A stretch of DNA of 64,000 nt from a virus. Its lineage: Duplodnaviria; Caudoviricetes. Position 1 is the first letter of the stretch; every line of letters begins with the position of its first letter. The translations under genes were made by a program, and so were the position numbers. The stretch lies in IMG/VR virus record IMGVR_UViG_3300025098_005131; one strand, written 5' to 3'. Under the pieces are notes generated by a model, which had not been told where the DNA came from, searched no databases, and was given only the letters and a program-made list of their open reading frames with translations. Positions 41,901-47,673 of this stretch are shown here, piece after piece.

Positions 41901-42407
41901 TTAAACAAATACGCCACAGTTAACTAATGATTGCAAAACATCTAACAAAGCCTTAGCTGATGATTCTCTGCATGTAGAACCTGAGCAATCCATCATAGGC
42001 TTAAGAAACTTATCAATATCATCTGGAGTGCCCATTAAGTGTTGAGAACAGCTATCATAAGAATCTTTACATGGAACTGTATGGATTGATTGTGCTCTTG
42101 CTTTATTATAATGATCTAGAGACTCTGGATGTTCACAGTGAAATTTAATATGATCTACATATTCTTGTGTAGTTACTTGACCATTATTATTTAAGTCAAA
42201 GTGTGAATATAAGTCTTCTGGCGTAATATGACCATCACCATCCGGGTCTAAGTCGTGATGACTATTATTATGTGGTTCGCTAACAATTTTTACATCATAT
42301 GACTCCAAGGGGTTAGCCATACAATTACAATTAGGTTTTCCACACATCAAACATACATCTAAATTTGCTCTATTTAAAAACTCTCTAATTAATTTTCTTT
42401 CACTCAT
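41901..42407 (-). CDS. EF-hand protein
   Basis: DPDGDGHITPED and DLNNNGQVTTQE loops. Leader RKLIREF. Confidence 0.75.
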   Translation of the reverse strand: MSERKLIREFLNRANLDVCLMCGKPNCNCMANPLESYDVKIVSEPHNNSHHDLDPDGDGHITPEDLYSHFDLNNNGQVTTQEYVDHIKFHCEHPESLDHYNKARAQSIHTVPCKDSYDSCSQHLMGTPDDIDKFLKPMMDCSGSTCRESSAKALLDVLQSLVNCGVFV

Positions 42408-42449: not shown

Positions 42450-43613
42450 TTATAATTTTTCTATGAAATTTATTTGTTGTTTATCGTGAGAATCTTTTCT
42501 GCTTTTGCCTAGTTTTATTAGTTCATTCATTTTTTCTTGTGAAGAAACTTTTTCGGAAAAATTATTGCAATTTTCTTCAGCTTTGTCTGTTAAAATGTTA
42601 ATTGACTGAAAAATGGTTTTTAATCTTTTGAGAACAAAACAAGCAATATGCGCGCTATCTTTAAATATGATTCTTTCAGGCGCTGAATGGGAGATGTCTC
42701 TTTCTAAGAGTGTAGTACAATTTTCAATTGCTGTATGCATGTAAGACTTATAAAGTCTTGTAAGGCCGCATATGTTTTCTGAAAGTATTGGGTTCTTTTT
42801 GTGAGGCATTGCACTTGATCCTTTTTGTCCTTTCGAAAAAGGTTCAGACATTTCATTTACGCCATCAATACTGTATATTCTTATGTCATAAGCAATTTTT
42901 TCTGCTGCTAAAACTACTTTAAGTATTGCATAGAAGTAATCTAAAAAAACATCTCGAGGAATAATCTGTGAACTTCTTATTGGATACAAGCCTAAAGATC
43001 GAAGAGCGTTGTTTTCGTTTCGATATGAGTTGAAAGTATTATTGCCTATTACTCCTGATAATTTTCCCCATTTCAAGCCTTTTTCTACACGAGATATTTC
43101 GTCATAACCTCTTCTTAAATAGTCTATCCATCTTAAAAAGATTTCTCTATAAGTTTGTATTTCAGCAGACTTTCCATGAGTTCGACCTAATATTCTTTTT
43201 TTAGAAAAATCTGATTTTAAAACTTTGTTTAAATGATATAAAGTATCAGCGCAGTAATTGTTAACTTGCTTTAACGATTCTTTACTCATAAGAACAAGTG
43301 AAGTATCTAATATGTCTGATGATGTTAGGCCATAATGTATCCATCTTCCAGCATTACCAGGAATAGATTCTTCTAGCATTTGCACGAAAGCTTGAACGTC
43401 GTGTCTAGTTTCTGATTCTATTTCTTTCCATCTGTCGATATTAATTGATACGTTTTCCTGAATAGTTTTTAACTCTTTTTCAGTAATTGTTTTTTCAATT
43501 ATATTACCAGAAATTGACTCTAAGTGTGCCATTTCAACTTTAAGCCATGTTTTTAATTTATTTTCTGTTTTCCATATATCATGAATTTCTTGTACTTTAT
43601 AACGTGGTATCAT
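42450..43613 (-). CDS. purB: adenylosuccinate lyase
   Basis: HDVQAFV, HYGLTSSD, GRTHG, SSAMPHKKNP signature. Confidence 0.95.
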   Translation of the reverse strand: MIPRYKVQEIHDIWKTENKLKTWLKVEMAHLESISGNIIEKTITEKELKTIQENVSINIDRWKEIESETRHDVQAFVQMLEESIPGNAGRWIHYGLTSSDILDTSLVLMSKESLKQVNNYCADTLYHLNKVLKSDFSKKRILGRTHGKSAEIQTYREIFLRWIDYLRRGYDEISRVEKGLKWGKLSGVIGNNTFNSYRNENNALRSLGLYPIRSSQIIPRDVFLDYFYAILKVVLAAEKIAYDIRIYSIDGVNEMSEPFSKGQKGSSAMPHKKNPILSENICGLTRLYKSYMHTAIENCTTLLERDISHSAPERIIFKDSAHIACFVLKRLKTIFQSINILTDKAEENCNNFSEKVSSQEKMNELIKLGKSRKDSHDKQQINFIEKL

Positions 43614-43792
43614 TTTTTCTCTTTATATTTTTCTATAGTTTCTGTTGGCAATTCAACTATTTGTTTACCTAATAATATTTCTGACAGGCTTTTAGTTTTT
43701 CTGTAAACTTCATTTATACCATACTTGATAGTTACAGGTGAATCATAGTCAAATTTATTAATAACAAGATCACCATGTTTTAACTTGCCCAA
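43610..43792 (-). CDS. small hypothetical protein
   Basis: Overlaps both purA and purB. Confidence 0.5.
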   Translation of the reverse strand: MGKLKHGDLVINKFDYDSPVTIKYGINEVYRKTKSLSEILLGKQIVELPTETIEKYKEKK

Positions 43793-44976
43793 ACTATTTC
43801 GCCTCTTTTAGGGCCAGTTGTATATGATATCTTATTGACTCCAGTATGTATCTCTATCTGATTTAATAATTCTGTAAAACCTGGATCAAAAGCACTTACT
43901 GTATTGATTTTAGATAACAAATAGCTTCTGCCATGAACAAACAAACTAGGTCTTTCGATATGCGTCATAACATCAGTTTTGACTACACATAAATGATCAA
44001 CACCATTTTGTTGAACAGCTCGTTTAACTTCGTCTAAATCAAGCCAGCCACATTGTCTTGGGCGACCTGTAGTTGCTCCGAACTCTTGACCAACTTCAGA
44101 AAGAACTTTTTCTTGGCCGTCTGATATTATACTTGGGAAATCGCCAGATCCAACTTTAGTTTTATAAGATTTTATAACACCAATTACCTCATCTATCTGC
44201 TTATGACTTAAACCTGTAGAATTTAAGGCACCACCTACAGAAGGTGCTGATGATGTAACATCTGGATAGTTATTTGAAAATATGTTGAGACCACTGCCTT
44301 GCGCGCCTTCTAGTAAGATATTATAGTCTTTTTTATAATAATCTTGTAGCACATTTTCATTGTTGAGACGATATAGACCAAGTATTTCAGACATTTCTTT
44401 ATATTTTAAAACCCAATTATTAAACAAGTCAAAATCTGGTTTGAGTTCTTTTAAACTTTCTCCATCTTGTGCTCTCTTTTCTTGTAAGTCAAAAAACTTT
44501 GATTGAATCTTTATAAGAGATTCTTCTGGAGAATCTACGATGTCTTTTACAAGAATAGAATCTCTAGCGTAAAAATCAGAGTAAGCAGGGCCAATTCCTT
44601 TAGCAGTTGTGCCTAGTTTCTTTTGATATTTAAGTCTGTCAATAATTTTATGTGTTGGCTCTATTATTGGGCAGTAACCAGAAACTGAAAGGTTTATGCC
44701 GGGTTTTACATTAAGGCCAGCAACTTCTTGACAAAATTCTTCTATGTCTACAACACAACCTCTTGCAATTATATTAATTACTTCTTTTGAAAGAACGCCG
44801 ACAGGCAAGATGTGTGTAACAAATTTATTTCCTCTTCTATCATAGACAGTATGTCCTGCATTTCCTCCTCCTTGAAATCTTACGACAACGTCAGCCCAAG
44901 TTTGAACTAAATCATCAACTACTCTACCTTTACCTTCGTCTCCGTGCTGGAGACCTAATACTAATTTTGTTGGCAT
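43780..44976 (-). CDS. purA: adenylosuccinate synthetase
   Basis: GDEGKG, RFQGGGNAGHT, GTT..GIGPAY, LEGAQG, GATTGRPR. Confidence 0.95.
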   Translation of the reverse strand: MPTKLVLGLQHGDEGKGRVVDDLVQTWADVVVRFQGGGNAGHTVYDRRGNKFVTHILPVGVLSKEVINIIARGCVVDIEEFCQEVAGLNVKPGINLSVSGYCPIIEPTHKIIDRLKYQKKLGTTAKGIGPAYSDFYARDSILVKDIVDSPEESLIKIQSKFFDLQEKRAQDGESLKELKPDFDLFNNWVLKYKEMSEILGLYRLNNENVLQDYYKKDYNILLEGAQGSGLNIFSNNYPDVTSSAPSVGGALNSTGLSHKQIDEVIGVIKSYKTKVGSGDFPSIISDGQEKVLSEVGQEFGATTGRPRQCGWLDLDEVKRAVQQNGVDHLCVVKTDVMTHIERPSLFVHGRSYLLSKINTVSAFDPGFTELLNQIEIHTGVNKISYTTGPKRGEIVWAS

Positions 44977-45632
44977 TAATTTTCTTTCTCTTCAGAATAA
45001 TCAAAGTTATTTGTTTCACCTAACAATTCGTAAGTCTCATGTGAAAATTCTCTTGGTTTGTCAAAAACTTTAAAGTCAGGTTTTTTAGGATTTTCATAGC
45101 CAAGAGAGCTATGATTCCATAAAATCTTATTATTCGGGCCACAACACAAAACGCCTAATTCGTCTTCAAAGAAAAAGTTTTTTTGCTTATGCTCTGTCCA
45201 AAATTTTGATTCTGTATAGTCAACTGAATTATTTATCTCAGGCGGTTTAAAATCAACTGTAAAGGTGTATCTTCCTCTTAGCAAAGCTTTGTTTCTATTT
45301 TTCATTGTAACATCAACGTTTTTTAAAAATGCTTTTTGATAAATTTCAGCGCTGTCTGTTATACAATCCCACCAAGCAACATCTGTTAAATCGATTTTTA
45401 CATTTGGACTTTCTTCTTTGTTGAATATTGCGCATTGTAATATTTTATCATAACAAGCATTATATTCAGGCATATAAGCTTCAAACAAAGGAGGTTCGTA
45501 CCTTGTGAATCTAACACCTACAAGGTAAGCCTCAATCATATTATGATCTTTTGCCCAAATAAAATTGCTTGAGCCTTTTAAAAAAGATTCTTTAATCCAC
45601 ACTTTTTCGTATGGTAAATTTAAATACATCAT
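44976..45632 (-). CDS. hypothetical phage protein
   Basis: WDC, Y.FT.D, EHK, PNN..W motifs. Embedded in the purine operon. Confidence 0.7.
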   Translation of the reverse strand: MMYLNLPYEKVWIKESFLKGSSNFIWAKDHNMIEAYLVGVRFTRYEPPLFEAYMPEYNACYDKILQCAIFNKEESPNVKIDLTDVAWWDCITDSAEIYQKAFLKNVDVTMKNRNKALLRGRYTFTVDFKPPEINNSVDYTESKFWTEHKQKNFFFEDELGVLCCGPNNKILWNHSSLGYENPKKPDFKVFDKPREFSHETYELLGETNNFDYSEEKEN

Positions 45633-45633
45633 G

Positions 45634-46695
45634 TTATTTTTTCCTGTTAAAAATATGAGGATTACCTTCTACATGTGAAGAAGATGTTTGCTTTCGAAAT
45701 ACTGCATTGTCTATAAGCTCTTGTAAAGTATTTGCACCGCTATAAGACATTCCACTTCTTACATTTGACATTATCTCATTAATCACCTTTGAAGTAGTAC
45801 CTTTGTAAGGGACAAATGAAGCGACGCCTTCGATTGAGTTGTATGTGCCTTTCCAGTTTTTCTGTGCTGCTTTTGAAGCCATTCCGTTATAACGCTTTAA
45901 CTTTTTACCGTCTTGAGTTATTGTTTTTCCTGGCGTTTCTCTTGTTCCACTTAACATAGAACCAAGCATAACAAAATCTGCGCCTGCTGCTAATGACTTA
46001 ACAATATCACCACTATTTTTAATACCACCATCAGCAACAATATAAGGCACTAAACAATCTTTACTGTTATTTAATAGATCTTGTTTTGCCTCATAACAAT
46101 CAAGTATTGCCTGAAATGTTGGTATTCCGTGTCCTGTCTGGATTCTTGTTGTACAAATACTTCCACTCCCTACAGATGTTCGAACAGCATGCGCGCCTGC
46201 CAATGCTAAACGTTTATACGCATGACCTGTAGCAACGTTTCCTGCCATGACAAATAGATGTGGATATTCACTCCTGATAAATTCTATTGCTTTTTCCATA
46301 AGAATATGATCACCGTGAGCAATGTCAATACAGACAATACTTAAATCATTTCTAGAAAGCTCTGATAATCTTTCTTTGTAATCTCCAGTTGCACCAATCG
46401 CTGCAGCTCTATAATCTCTATGATTAACATATCCTAAGAGTTTTGCTTGAAACTCAATTGTATTATACCTGTGAATAATACCTAGTCCACCTTGACTGAT
46501 CATCGCATTAGACATATGCGCTTCAGTTACTGTTGACATAGGAGAGCTGATAATTGGTATTTTAAATTTTAAATTCTTGCCAGAATATTTTACATTAACA
46601 CAAGTATCAATATTCTTTCTAGTTATTAACTCTGAGTATTGAGGTTCTAAAATTACATCATCAAAACTTAATACTTCTTTTTTATTAATTCTCAT
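45634..46695 (-). CDS. IMPDH/GMP reductase family, CBS-less, GMP reductase favoured
   Basis: LSFDDV, DIAHG, GNVAT, GSICTTR, ADGG, GMAS. Flap lacks the Arg-Tyr dyad. Confidence 0.85.
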   Translation of the reverse strand: MRINKKEVLSFDDVILEPQYSELITRKNIDTCVNVKYSGKNLKFKIPIISSPMSTVTEAHMSNAMISQGGLGIIHRYNTIEFQAKLLGYVNHRDYRAAAIGATGDYKERLSELSRNDLSIVCIDIAHGDHILMEKAIEFIRSEYPHLFVMAGNVATGHAYKRLALAGAHAVRTSVGSGSICTTRIQTGHGIPTFQAILDCYEAKQDLLNNSKDCLVPYIVADGGIKNSGDIVKSLAAGADFVMLGSMLSGTRETPGKTITQDGKKLKRYNGMASKAAQKNWKGTYNSIEGVASFVPYKGTTSKVINEIMSNVRSGMSYSGANTLQELIDNAVFRKQTSSSHVEGNPHIFNRKK

Positions 46696-46752
46696 TTAAT
46701 TCCTCTTTATAGTATTAGTGTATATAAATAATTTTTTATTTACACCAAAGAG

Positions 46753-47673
46753 TTATTTATTATTTAAAAAGTCTTTTTTGTATTTTGCTAAAGCTTTTTC
46801 TTTGCATTTAGCTTCTAACATAATGTCAACTGACTTGCCACAGCTATCAAAGGGTTTGTAGTAAAAGTTTGAATGTGCTGCAGATGATCTTGTTGTTGGA
46901 TCTTCAAACTCTTTTTTACCGTTAGAATGATGACAAGTTGGTCGAATTGTAGAAGGCCATGAATCAAAAGCCATGTCAAAGCTCTCATCATAAGGTGCAT
47001 CCTGAGGTCCGAGACTAAAGTGATGAGAGTCGAAGACAATTGGAACGCCTGTAACCTTATAAACATTTTCGTATAGAAACTTTGAACTAAACATTGCAGC
47101 CTTGTCATCGTTTTCTACAGTAAGTCTTGACTGAACTGATGGCGATAGTCTTTGAAAGTTTTTATTAAAGTTGTCTGCGGCTAGTTGTAGATTGCCTCCG
47201 CATGATGAACCAAGATGAATATTGATTTTTGACCAGTGATTTTGATCTAGACCCATAAGATCGAAAAGCTTACCATGTATTTCTAGATCTTTAATACAAT
47301 TTTCTACAACATAATCTTTTTCTGATGCTAAACAATTAAATTGACCTGGGTGAAATGAAACTCTTTGACCAATAACTTTGGTATAATCGCCTGCCATTTT
47401 AAGATAGTGGCATATTTCTTCGTAGTCTGGAAGCTCATGCAACTCATATTCGCTAGCCCAAGGGGTAATTTCTGATGAGAGACGAAAGACTTCTACTTTA
47501 TTTTTGTAATTCCAGTTAAAGATTGGTAACATATCTTTGACATTTTGCAAAACAAGTGACGAAGCATACGTCAACCCTTTTTCAAGGAAAGTCTTTTTTC
47601 TCATTGTCCTAGAATTGAATATACCTTTTTCTCGTAGTTCCATATTGATGCACGCATATCCAAATCGATTCAT
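46753..47673 (-). CDS. uvsE: UV-damage endonuclease
   Basis: FGYACIN, RLSS, SFHPGQF, INIH, ENDD, DSHH, EAK.KE.A. Confidence 0.92.
   Translation of the reverse strand: MNRFGYACINMELREKGIFNSRTMRKKTFLEKGLTYASSLVLQNVKDMLPIFNWNYKNKVEVFRLSSEITPWASEYELHELPDYEEICHYLKMAGDYTKVIGQRVSFHPGQFNCLASEKDYVVENCIKDLEIHGKLFDLMGLDQNHWSKINIHLGSSCGGNLQLAADNFNKNFQRLSPSVQSRLTVENDDKAAMFSSKFLYENVYKVTGVPIVFDSHHFSLGPQDAPYDESFDMAFDSWPSTIRPTCHHSNGKKEFEDPTTRSSAAHSNFYYKPFDSCGKSVDIMLEAKCKEKALAKYKKDFLNNK

What the first reader, a model, noticed from the sequence alone, without database searches (positions are those of the whole stretch)
42450..46695. Probable GMP->IMP->AMP shunt operon that converts host guanine nucleotides to adenine
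Seen: one promoter (46740) followed by an IMPDH/GMPR-family gene, an unknown gene, purA, a tiny ORF and purB. The first gene lacks CBS domains, has GMAS, and has a short flap (KAAQKNWKGTYNSIEG) without an Arg-Tyr pair. Established: IMPDH uses an Arg-Tyr flap dyad that GMP reductases lack, and GMPR+PurA+PurB convert GMP to AMP. Inference: an AT-rich phage rebalancing purine pools of a GC-rich host. If the enzyme is IMPDH instead, the operon supplies both branches from IMP.
Basis: partly seen in the sequence, partly recalled or inferred. Interest (0 to 1): 0.72.

Follow-up and report, generated by a model that had tools for sequence, protein, structure and literature searches.

The report
Phage operon converting GMP to AMP
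An uncultured, AT-rich marine giant phage and about twenty relatives carry one tightly packed operon of three purine enzymes that most likely turns guanine nucleotides into adenine nucleotides, textbook chemistry that I did not find described as a complete virus-encoded route.

Summary
On the minus strand, a GTGTAA-type promoter (46745-46717) heads five abutting or overlapping genes: an IMPDH/GMPR-family protein (353 aa), an unknown 218-aa gene, PurA, a 60-aa ORF and PurB.

About 21 related viral contigs keep the order UvdE, GMPR-like, PurA, PurB. The 218-aa gene is a wandering cassette and the 60-aa ORF is optional, so neither belongs to the pathway.

The first enzyme has no CBS domain. Its flap is 14 residues long and lacks the Arg-Tyr dyad, but it keeps the Cys, Thr and Glu shared by GMP reductases. 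It lies outside a fully supported clade of dyad-bearing IMPDHs, which includes the three guaA-adjacent ones. It also lies outside the canonical GuaC clades and scores below every curated cut-off. A complete relative has no GuaA and no 7-deazapurine genes. PurA keeps the Asp13 that PurZ replaces, and its GTP motif.

Best reading (about 0.65): GMP to IMP to adenylosuccinate to AMP, feeding a 32% GC genome.

The "GC-rich host" claim is untested, because the host is unknown. No enzyme was assayed. An earlier first-reader note in this scan gave the same reading for this stretch.

The parts
46717..46745 (-). Promoter-like element of the phage's own class: GTGTAA (46745-46740), 17-nt spacer, TACACT (46722-46717). 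An AAAGAGGA ribosome-binding site follows at 46708-46701.
   Evidence: Read directly. GTGTAA-N16-19-TATAAT occurs 21 times in the window against 0.14 expected. Here the -10 box is imperfect (4 of 6 matches), so this copy was not found by the exact pattern.
45634..46695 (-). IMPDH/GMPR-family enzyme, 353 aa, predicted GMP reductase. It has no CBS domain and a 14-residue flap without the Arg-Tyr dyad. Catalytic Cys181, Thr183 and Glu289 are present.
44976..45632 (-). X218, a 218-aa protein of unknown function inserted between the reductase gene and purA. It is a passenger cassette, not part of the conserved pathway.
   Evidence: It is absent from 20 of 21 related contigs and present in L036 at 90% identity, where the flanking genes are only 58-64% identical. 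Elsewhere it lies beside PhoH or GH16/RegB genes. It has no Pfam match and its predicted all-beta fold has no named relative.
43780..44976 (-). PurA, adenylosuccinate synthetase, 398 aa. It lacks about 30 residues near the C-terminus compared with E. coli PurA.
   Evidence: NF002223 scores 308.6 bits against 122.1 for PurZ. Invariant with E. coli PurA: GDEGKG including Asp13, His41, Gln224, the TTGR aspartate site and the K-x-D guanine motif. The best solved relative is T. thermophilus PurA, 6jrq.
43610..43792 (-). orf60, a small ORF overlapping the purA stop and the purB start. It is an optional accessory gene.
   Evidence: A weakly similar ORF of about 55-75 aa, most with an N-terminal GDLV or GDLI motif, fills the same slot in 5 relatives. 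Other relatives have only a 7-38 nt gap there. No family match.
42450..43613 (-). PurB, adenylosuccinate lyase of the B. subtilis/T. maritima type, 387 aa. It lacks about 45 C-terminal residues.
   Evidence: TIGR00928 scores 291 bits and Lyase_1 matches. Aligned end to end with 1f1o, it keeps HYGLTS, GRTHG and the GSSAMPHK-NP signature loop.

Best explanation
This is a phage-encoded, probably co-transcribed purine-interconversion route.

1. The first enzyme reductively deaminates GMP to IMP, with NADPH as the expected cofactor.
2. PurA condenses IMP with aspartate, at the cost of GTP, to give adenylosuccinate.
3. PurB releases fumarate to give AMP.
4. AMP then enters the adenylate pool and, through the ribonucleotide reductase found in the relatives, the dATP pool.

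The net effect is to turn guanine nucleotides released from host RNA and nucleotide pools into the adenine nucleotides that a 32% GC genome needs, about 2.1 A for each G. The reductase has no CBS module, so it should escape the ATP/GTP allosteric control that governs CBS-bearing members such as mycobacterial GuaB1.

Shown here: gene identities, operon anatomy, conservation, and the catalytic and specificity residues.

Inferred: the direction of the first reaction, the cofactor, the flux, and the benefit to the phage.
For: Anatomy. One promoter-like element is followed by abutting or overlapping genes. The trio is syntenic in about 21 related contigs with intact frames. All the genes have phage-like composition, with GC3 about 0.20-0.25.

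First enzyme.
- The flap is 14 residues with no Arg-Tyr. Ten IMPDHs examined have 22-27 residues with an RY dyad (D/E/A-R-Y). E. coli-type GuaC has 17 residues and Firmicute GuaC has 10, neither with the dyad.
- The literature states that GMPRs lack the dyad and have a truncated flap, while Thr321 and Glu431 are kept (PMC2525682).
- Cys181, Thr183, Glu289 and the ribose-binding Asp222 are invariant in the family.
- A search of solved structures with the flap region alone ranks the dyad-less Legionella protein 3r2g and human GMPR2 first.
- In cellular genomes, the three guaA-adjacent homologues keep the RY flap, and two of them lack CBS. Second paralogues in the same genomes are dyad-less.
- In an IQ-TREE analysis, all RY-bearing and guaA-linked proteins form a clade with support 100 that excludes the phage protein.

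Genome content. A complete 239,550-bp relative has no GuaA and has ribonucleotide reductase.

PurA and PurB. PurA has the PurA-type Asp13, where PurZ has Ser. PurB keeps its catalytic signature.

Independent association. In an unrelated phage group, the same reductase family lies within a few kb of a 334-aa PurA in about 5-6 of 73 loci.

Precedents.
- Five cultured phages that carry an IMPDH/GMPR-family gene (variously annotated GMP reductase, dehydrogenase, or IMPDH/GMPR) have loci of 30-50% GC. From my own knowledge, all their hosts are more GC-rich.
- TubD, a CBS-less family member, is an NADPH-dependent GMP reductase (PMC6112128).
- Cyanophage MazG was proposed to recycle G/C nucleotides for an AT-rich phage (PMC6850273).
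Against: - No member of this dyad-less, 14-residue-flap subfamily has been assayed, as far as I could find.
- Overall, the protein is more similar to IMPDH than to GuaC: 41% against 32% identity, the best PDB hits are IMPDHs, and the best NCBIfam model is IMPDH.
- It scores below every curated equivalog cut-off and lies outside both canonical GuaC clades.
- IMPDH stripped of its Arg keeps about 10^-3 of its activity through the Thr/Glu relay (PMC2525682). A dyad-less enzyme could therefore still oxidise IMP slowly.
- One CPR genome (Beckwithbacteria) has GuaA and only a dyad-less homologue.
- A contig of the other phage group, 44.5% GC, sits in a Pelagibacteraceae single-cell assembly. If that reflects infection, it does not fit an 'AT-rich phage, GC-rich host' rule.
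- The host of this phage is unknown.
Confidence: 0.65

Rival explanations
1. The first enzyme is a stripped-down IMP dehydrogenase. The operon then boosts both exits from IMP: XMP/GMP through this enzyme plus the host GuaA, and AMP through PurA and PurB. PurB would also help de novo synthesis.
For: Overall similarity to IMPDHs is higher than to GuaC, and the best NCBIfam and PDB hits are IMPDHs. The family branches on the IMPDH side of the tree rather than with GuaC. Naturally CBS-less IMPDHs exist, for example in Mycoplasma and a Verrucomicrobiae genome. The Thr/Glu water-activation relay is intact, and the literature proposes it as the ancestral IMPDH mechanism. The Beckwithbacteria genome has GuaA and only a dyad-less homologue.
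Against: The Arg-Tyr dyad and the long flap are missing, whereas every IMPDH examined keeps them, including all three guaA-adjacent ones and those without CBS. The phage protein is excluded from the support-100 IMPDH clade. The complete relative has no GuaA. A 32% GC phage needs more A than G, not more G.
Confidence: 0.15
2. The three enzymes work on deoxynucleotides: dGMP to dIMP to succino-dAMP to dAMP. Guanine from degraded host DNA would be recycled into adenine without passing through ribonucleotides. This would be a purine counterpart of the dCMP deaminase plus thymidylate synthase route.
For: T4-like phages break host DNA down to dNMPs (my own knowledge). PurZ shows that a PurA-fold enzyme plus PurB can act on a deoxynucleotide. 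PurA here has a remodelled middle segment and a C-terminal deletion.
Against: The Asp that binds the ribose diol in IMPDH/GMPR enzymes (Asp222) is invariant in the family. PurA keeps the canonical IMP and aspartate site residues. Nothing in the sequences points to a deoxy preference. The relatives encode ribonucleotide reductase, so the ribonucleotide route is complete.
Confidence: 0.08
3. The trio tailors a non-canonical purine, as in toyocamycin clusters, where a GMP reductase, an adenylosuccinate synthetase and a lyase turn a 7-deazaguanine nucleotide into a 7-deazaadenine nucleotide. Alternatively it makes 2-aminoadenine. Either way the product would be a modified base for phage DNA.
For: The same three Pfam families are the signature tailoring set of toyocamycin gene clusters. 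Other notes in this scan suggest that this phage modifies pyrimidines (not checked here).
Against: The complete relative has no QueC, TGT/DpdA, QueD/PTPS or GTP cyclohydrolase I. PurA has Asp13 and scores 122 bits against the 300-bit cut-off for PurZ. No DatZ- or MazZ-type MazG gene was found.
Confidence: 0.04

Closest known systems
Bacterial GMP reductase GuaC (E. coli type, NF003470/TIGR01305; Firmicute type, NF003966/TIGR01306)
   Same: TIM-barrel IMPDH/GMPR fold and a length of about 350 aa. No CBS domain. Catalytic Cys, Thr and Glu are present. The flap is short and lacks the Arg-Tyr dyad. The IDIAHG and HR(Y/F) motifs resemble the Firmicute type.
   Different: Only 32% identity to E. coli GuaC. 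It scores below both curated cut-offs and lies outside both GuaC clades. It has its own conserved flap motif, A-Q-x-x-W-(R/K)-G.
IMP dehydrogenase GuaB, including naturally CBS-less forms
   Same: This is the highest overall similarity (41% to E. coli GuaB). The catalytic loop GSGSICTTR and the DGGI-x-x-SGD motif are shared.
   Different: No Arg-Tyr dyad. The flap is 14 residues against 22-27. There is no guaA linkage, and the protein is excluded from the IMPDH clade, which has support 100.
TubD/ToyE with ToyG and ToyF of tubercidin and toyocamycin biosynthesis in Streptomyces
   Same: A CBS-less IMPDH/GMPR-family reductase works with an adenylosuccinate synthetase and a lyase to convert a guanine-type nucleotide into an adenine-type one. 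TubD reduces GMP with NADPH and needs K+ (PMC6112128). In toyocamycin clusters the three families are clustered.
   Different: Those clusters also carry 7-deazapurine scaffold genes and a phosphoribosyltransferase, which this phage lineage lacks. I could not compare the TubD or ToyE sequences, because none was held by the tools.
PurZ pathway of Z-genome phages (PurZ plus host PurB)
   Same: A phage-encoded PurA-fold enzyme re-routes a guanine nucleotide towards an adenine-type base, with PurB chemistry as the second step.
   Different: PurZ has Ser where PurA has Asp13, acts on dGMP and makes 2-aminoadenine. Here Asp13 and the PurA profile are kept.
Solitary IMPDH/GMPR-family genes of cultured phages (Cr30, XacN1, RAS14, phage G, YS40)
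   Same: These are AT-rich phages carrying an IMPDH/GMPR-family gene among their nucleotide-metabolism genes.
   Different: Those genes stand alone, with no purA or purB nearby. The Cr30, XacN1 and phage G genes belong to the canonical GuaC types, not to this subfamily.
Cyanophage MazG (S-PM2)
   Same: It was proposed to bias nucleotide recycling from a GC-rich host towards an AT-rich phage genome (PMC6850273).
   Different: It is a pyrophosphohydrolase acting on dGTP and dCTP, and it does not interconvert bases. No MazG was found in the relatives.

Membership tests
IMP dehydrogenase (GuaB, EC 1.1.1.205) | Arg-Tyr catalytic dyad on a long mobile flap that activates water | tested here: not met
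   The flap is 14 residues, KAAQKNWKGTYNSI. Thr stands where IMPDH has Arg. Ten IMPDHs examined have 22-27 residues with RY.
IMP dehydrogenase (GuaB, EC 1.1.1.205) | Score above the curated equivalog cut-off (TIGR01302) | tested here: not met
   273 bits against a cut-off of 481.5.
IMP dehydrogenase (GuaB, EC 1.1.1.205) | Placement within the clade of dyad-bearing IMPDHs (includes the guaA-adjacent ones) | tested here: not met
   The IMPDH clade has UFBoot support 100 and contains only the 8 RY-bearing proteins. The phage protein lies outside it.
IMP dehydrogenase (GuaB, EC 1.1.1.205) | NAD+-dependent oxidation of IMP to XMP | not testable with these tools
   An enzyme assay is needed.
GMP reductase (GuaC, EC 1.7.1.7) | Catalytic Cys, Thr and Glu (human GMPR2 Cys186, Thr188, Glu289) | tested here: met
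   Cys181, Thr183 and Glu289 are invariant in alignments with E. coli GuaC and across the family. These residues are shared with IMPDH, so they are necessary but do not discriminate.
GMP reductase (GuaC, EC 1.7.1.7) | Truncated flap without the Arg-Tyr dyad, and no CBS domain | tested here: met
   The criterion is taken from PMC2525682.
GMP reductase (GuaC, EC 1.7.1.7) | Score above a curated equivalog cut-off, or placement in a canonical GuaC clade | tested here: not met
   NF003470 scores 230 against 397, TIGR01305 203 against 492, and NF003966 200.6 against 344. The protein lies outside the GuaC type 1 and type 2 clades.
GMP reductase (GuaC, EC 1.7.1.7) | NADPH-dependent reductive deamination of GMP | not testable with these tools
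   An enzyme assay is needed.
Adenylosuccinate synthetase (PurA) | GDEGKG P-loop with Asp13, plus His41, Gln224, the Thr300/Thr301/Arg303 aspartate site and the K-x-D guanine motif | tested here: met
   All of these columns are invariant in the alignment with E. coli PurA and four phage homologues.
Adenylosuccinate synthetase (PurA) | Score above the curated equivalog cut-off | tested here: not met
   NF002223 scores 308.6 against 402. The profile match stops at position 340 of 430, and about 30 residues are missing near the C-terminus.
PurZ (succino-amino-deoxyadenylate synthase) | Ser in place of Asp13, and a score above the NF038379 cut-off | tested here: not met
   Asp is present. The score is 122 bits against 300.
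Adenylosuccinate lyase (PurB) | Fumarase/lyase fold with the SSxMPxKxN signature loop and the His general acid and base motifs | tested here: met
   HYGLTSSD, GRTHG and GSSAMPHKKNP align with B. subtilis ASL, 1f1o. PF00206 matches.
Adenylosuccinate lyase (PurB) | Score above the curated equivalog cut-off, with the C-terminal ADSL_C segment present | tested here: not met
   TIGR00928 scores 291.2 against 326.2. The match ends at position 380 of 436, so about 45 C-terminal residues are absent.
Toyocamycin-type 7-deazapurine G-to-A tailoring set | Co-occurrence with preQ0/CDG scaffold genes (FolE, QueD, QueC) or a DpdA/TGT | tested here: not met
   None of these was found in the complete relative G001.

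The most novel reading that the evidence does not exclude
The operon works at the deoxynucleotide level, converting dGMP to dIMP to dAMP. It would then be the purine counterpart of the dCMP-deaminase plus thymidylate-synthase route, letting an AT-rich phage turn the G of degraded host DNA directly into A. A milder version is much more likely, at about 0.6. In that version the dyad-less, CBS-less enzymes with the 14-residue A-Q-x-x-W-(R/K)-G flap are a third, unassayed class of GMP reductase, present on at least 585 viral contigs.
Probability: 0.08. Interest if true: 0.8.

Novelty: new variant of a known kind. Interest (0 to 1): 0.45.

Why it matters
If the first enzyme is a GMP reductase, this phage lineage carries the whole guanine-to-adenine interconversion route. 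It would not depend on host GuaC, which my own knowledge says many bacteria lack, nor on host PurA and PurB. That would be a clear case of a virus tuning the purine base ratio of its building blocks to its own genome composition. It would complement the well-known pyrimidine route from dCMP to dTMP.

The work also points to a large subfamily that has not been assayed. It has thousands of proteins and lies on at least 585 viral contigs. Databases label it inconsistently as IMP dehydrogenase or GMP reductase, and one enzyme assay would settle the annotation.

The chemistry itself is textbook, so the finding is of moderate interest rather than a surprise.

Tried and rejected
1. No whole genome is held for this window. 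Genome-level absences therefore rest on a complete 239,550-bp relative (G001) and an 84% complete one (G011).
2. A 7-deazaadenine pathway: rejected, because QueC, TGT, PTPS and GTP cyclohydrolase I are absent.
3. A Z-base (PurZ) pathway: rejected on the Asp13 residue and the profile scores.
4. X218 as a pathway component: rejected. It is absent from 20 of 21 related contigs and sits in unrelated contexts elsewhere. Fold searches of its model (pLDDT 79.5) gave no named match in the PDB or AlphaFold clusters. The protein atlas gave nothing.
5. Phylogeny alone cannot assign the function. The subfamily sits in a dyad-less grade between the canonical GuaC and IMPDH clades.
6. DNA similarity to the phage records is negligible.
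7. No MazG was found in the relatives.
A 7-sequence alignment worked.
10. Literature searches found no description of a phage GMPR-PurA-PurB operon. There was only a passing mention of a GMP reductase in deep-water pelagimyophages (PMC7029224) and of canonical PurA on unmodified aquatic phage contigs (bioRxiv 10.1101/2025.10.22.683976).
11. The host's GC content could not be determined.

Full report
**What is there**

The window is 31.8% GC and has the look of a large phage. It has many short ORFs, six tRNA genes and 21 copies of a GTGTAA-N16-19-TATAAT promoter motif, against 0.14 expected by chance.

On the minus strand between 46745 and 42450 lie, in order:
- a GTGTAA element (46745-46740), a 17-nt spacer, TACACT (46722-46717) and a strong ribosome-binding site;
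- an IMPDH/GMPR-family gene of 353 aa (46695..45634; PF00478, E 4e-96);
- a 218-aa gene with no Pfam match (45632..44976);
- PurA, 398 aa (44976..43780; PF00709, E 2e-94);
- a 60-aa ORF (43792..43610);
- PurB, 387 aa (43613..42450; TIGR00928, E 1e-86).

The junctions leave 1 untranslated base or overlap by 1, 13 and 4 bases, which is the usual anatomy of an operon. No terminator-like site was found inside or just after it.

**Conservation and what is core**

Two scans of IMG/VR returned about 21 distinct related contigs with the order UvdE, reductase-like gene, PurA, PurB, EF-hand protein. Protein identities are 58-95% and every frame is intact. In nearly all of them purA starts 2-8 bases after the reductase gene.

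The 218-aa gene (X218) is found in only one of them, L036, in the same slot. There it is 90% identical while its neighbours are only 58-64% identical. Its homologues elsewhere sit beside PhoH or beside GH16/RegB genes. X218 is therefore a wandering accessory cassette and not a pathway component. Its predicted all-beta fold (pLDDT 79.5) has no named relative.

The small ORF between purA and purB is present in some relatives, as a weakly similar protein that often starts with a GDLV-like motif. In others it is replaced by a gap of 7-38 nt. The conserved unit is the three enzymes.

**PurA and PurB**

PurA scores 308.6 bits on the bacterial PurA model and 122 on the PurZ model. Aligned with E. coli PurA, the following are invariant: the GDEGKG loop with Asp13, His41, Gln224, the TTGR aspartate site and the K-x-D guanine-specificity motif. 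About 30 residues near the C-terminus are missing. PurZ enzymes carry Ser at the Asp13 position, and that residue governs their selectivity for dGMP (bioRxiv 10.1101/2025.10.22.683976). This protein is therefore of the PurA type.

PurB aligns end to end with B. subtilis adenylosuccinate lyase (1f1o). It keeps the HYGLTS and GRTHG motifs and the GSSAMPHK-NP signature loop, and lacks about 45 C-terminal residues. Both proteins fall somewhat below NCBI's equivalog cut-offs because of these deletions. Their activity is therefore very likely, but it is not proven.

**Reductase or dehydrogenase?**

This is the crux. Homology alone does not settle it.
- The protein is 41% identical to E. coli GuaB and 32% identical to GuaC.
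- Its best solved relatives are IMPDHs.
- It is below the curated cut-off of every IMPDH, GuaC, GuaB1 and GuaB3 model.

The mechanistic criterion comes from Hedstrom and colleagues. IMPDH hydrolyses the covalent E-XMP* intermediate using an Arg-Tyr dyad carried on a long mobile flap. GMP reductases must avoid that hydrolysis, so they lack the dyad and have a truncated flap. Both enzymes keep the Thr and Glu of the older proton relay (PMC2525682).

The phage protein has no CBS insert. Its flap is 14 residues (KAAQKNWKGTYNSI), with Thr where IMPDH has Arg. Cys181, Thr183 and Glu289 are conserved. For comparison:
- E. coli, Acinetobacter, Staphylococcus and Listeria GuaB have 22-27 flap residues with D-R-Y;
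- E. coli-type GuaC has 17 residues without the dyad;
- Firmicute GuaC has 10 residues without the dyad.

A search of solved structures with the flap region alone puts a dyad-less Legionella protein (3r2g) and human GMPR2 first.

I then tested the criterion against gene context in cellular genomes. In a Mycoplasma, a Verrucomicrobiae and a Bacteriovoracia genome, the homologue next to guaA keeps the long RY flap, even where CBS is missing. The Rosettibacter long paralogue also keeps it. The second paralogues in Rosettibacter, Bacteriovoracia and the Verrucomicrobiae genome are dyad-less.

In an IQ-TREE analysis of 65 sequences, all eight RY-bearing proteins form a clade with support 100 that excludes the phage protein. 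The phage protein sits in a broad dyad-less grade. It is also outside the canonical GuaC clades.

A complete 239,550-bp relative has no GuaA, so a phage IMPDH would have no partner of its own.

Taken together, I put about 0.7 on GMP reductase activity and about 0.65 on the whole GMP to AMP route.

**Caveats**

- No member of this subfamily has been assayed, as far as I could find.
- IMPDH without its Arg keeps about a thousandth of its activity.
- One CPR genome has GuaA and only a dyad-less homologue.

**The subfamily and its associations**

The family is large. There are 8000 or more close proteins in the 5.8-billion-sequence set, 11,932 representative clusters at E of 0.001 or better, and at least 585 viral contigs. 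Most members share the flap motif A-Q-x-x-W-(R/K)-G.

Outside the present lineage, most viral members belong to a different phage group that encodes a Pol III alpha subunit, GroEL, ClpP and a dUTPase-like protein. There the gene stands without purB. In about 5-6 of 73 such loci a 334-aa PurA, again of the PurA type and not the PurZ type, lies a few kb away. This is a second, independent link between this reductase-like family and PurA.

Cultured phages with IMPDH/GMPR-family genes (Cr30, XacN1, RAS14, phage G, YS40, Mel-JY01) carry them alone. The Cr30, XacN1 and phage G genes are of the canonical GuaC types.

**Rationale and the host question**

A 31.8% GC genome needs about 2.1 A for every G. 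Relatives encode ribonucleotide reductase, so AMP made by the operon can reach dATP.

The loci of the five cultured phages that carry an IMPDH/GMPR-family gene are 30-50% GC. From my own knowledge, their hosts (Caulobacter, Xanthomonas, Thermus, B. megaterium, Microcystis) are all more GC-rich, three of them by a wide margin. The idea of recycling G/C nucleotides for an AT-rich phage has a published precedent in cyanophage MazG (PMC6850273).

The tRNA genes found (two Leu-UAA, one CAU, Thr-UGU, Lys-UUU, Arg-UCU) all read A-ending or AT-rich codons. That fits a phage more AT-rich than its host's tRNA pool, but it is weak evidence. The route would also be useful against an AT-rich host, because ribosomal RNA holds much more G, relative to A, than this genome needs (my own knowledge).

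**Alternatives examined**

- Toyocamycin gene clusters use the same three families to turn a 7-deazaguanine nucleotide into a 7-deazaadenine one (PMC6112128; bioRxiv 10.64898/2026.04.15.718813). The complete relative has no QueC, TGT/DpdA, PTPS or GTP cyclohydrolase I, so I rate this at about 0.04.
- A deoxynucleotide version (dGMP to dAMP) is attractive and would be new. However, the ribose-binding Asp222 is invariant and nothing in the sequences points to a deoxy preference, so I rate it at about 0.08.
- The IMPDH reading keeps about 0.15.

**Novelty**

Each enzyme and the pathway itself are textbook. Solitary phage GMP reductase genes are annotated in several genomes, and canonical PurA on aquatic phage contigs has been noted. 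I found no paper describing a phage operon that joins all three steps, and none characterising the dyad-less 14-residue-flap subfamily.

I class this as a new variant of a known kind, of moderate interest. It is readily testable with one spectrophotometric assay and standard E. coli complementation.

Noticed in passing
window 44976-45632 (-); L036:7031-7681: The 218-aa X218 gene sits in the same slot, between the reductase gene and purA, in only two distantly related phages. It is 90% identical between them while the flanking genes are 58-64% identical. That suggests recent lateral movement of a cassette into one precise intergenic site. Its fold has no named relative, and it carries several invariant Cys, His, Trp and Asp residues.
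   Followed up: partly
proteins P0132, P0180 (about 700 aa) and P0129 (479 aa), homologues of the reductase-like protein: Many homologues carry an intein inserted in the catalytic loop just before the Ser-x-Cys. Hint and intein-splicing domain matches are weak, with E values of 1e-6 to 1e-3, below Pfam cut-offs. Both full-size forms and mini forms occur.
   Followed up: partly
window 43610-43792 (-); gaps between purA and purB in L001, L006, L010, L014, L036: A small, fast-evolving ORF family of about 55-75 aa, most members with an N-terminal GDLV or GDLI motif, occupies the purA-purB spacer in some relatives and is absent from others.
   Followed up: partly
window 41901-42407 (-): A 168-aa protein with an EF-hand calcium-binding motif (PF00036, E 2e-7) follows purB in every relative, 42 nt downstream with no terminator between. 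It may be co-transcribed with the purine genes.
   Followed up: no
loci L037-L109 (IMG/VR): A second, unrelated and abundant marine phage group carries a 45-52% identical reductase-like gene. This group encodes a Pol III alpha subunit, GroEL, ClpP, a dUTPase-like protein and a small sigma region-4 protein. About 5-6 of 73 loci also have a minimal 334-aa PurA.
   Followed up: partly
G001:C1:67492-70118 and G011:C1:186971-189600 (relatives): The large subunit of ribonucleotide reductase matches in three separate pieces, one of them with an internal TAA. This suggests an intron, an intein or a split gene.
   Followed up: no
L194 (Candidatus Beckwithbacteria, complete genome): This CPR genome has GuaA, but its only IMPDH/GMPR homologue is dyad-less. 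This is either a counter-example to the dyad rule or a salvage-only purine economy.
   Followed up: no
L110 (Pelagibacteraceae single-cell assembly AG-430-L09, 7-kb contig): A 50% identical reductase-like gene lies on a short 44.5% GC contig within a SAR11 single-cell genome. This may be a virus-host link for the other phage group.
   Followed up: no
window 46753-47673 (-): A UV-damage endonuclease (UvdE/UvsE, E 4e-50) lies immediately upstream of the operon in all but one relative whose locus reaches that far upstream (L013 gave no UvdE match). The operon's promoter sits in the 57-nt gap after its stop codon.
   Followed up: no
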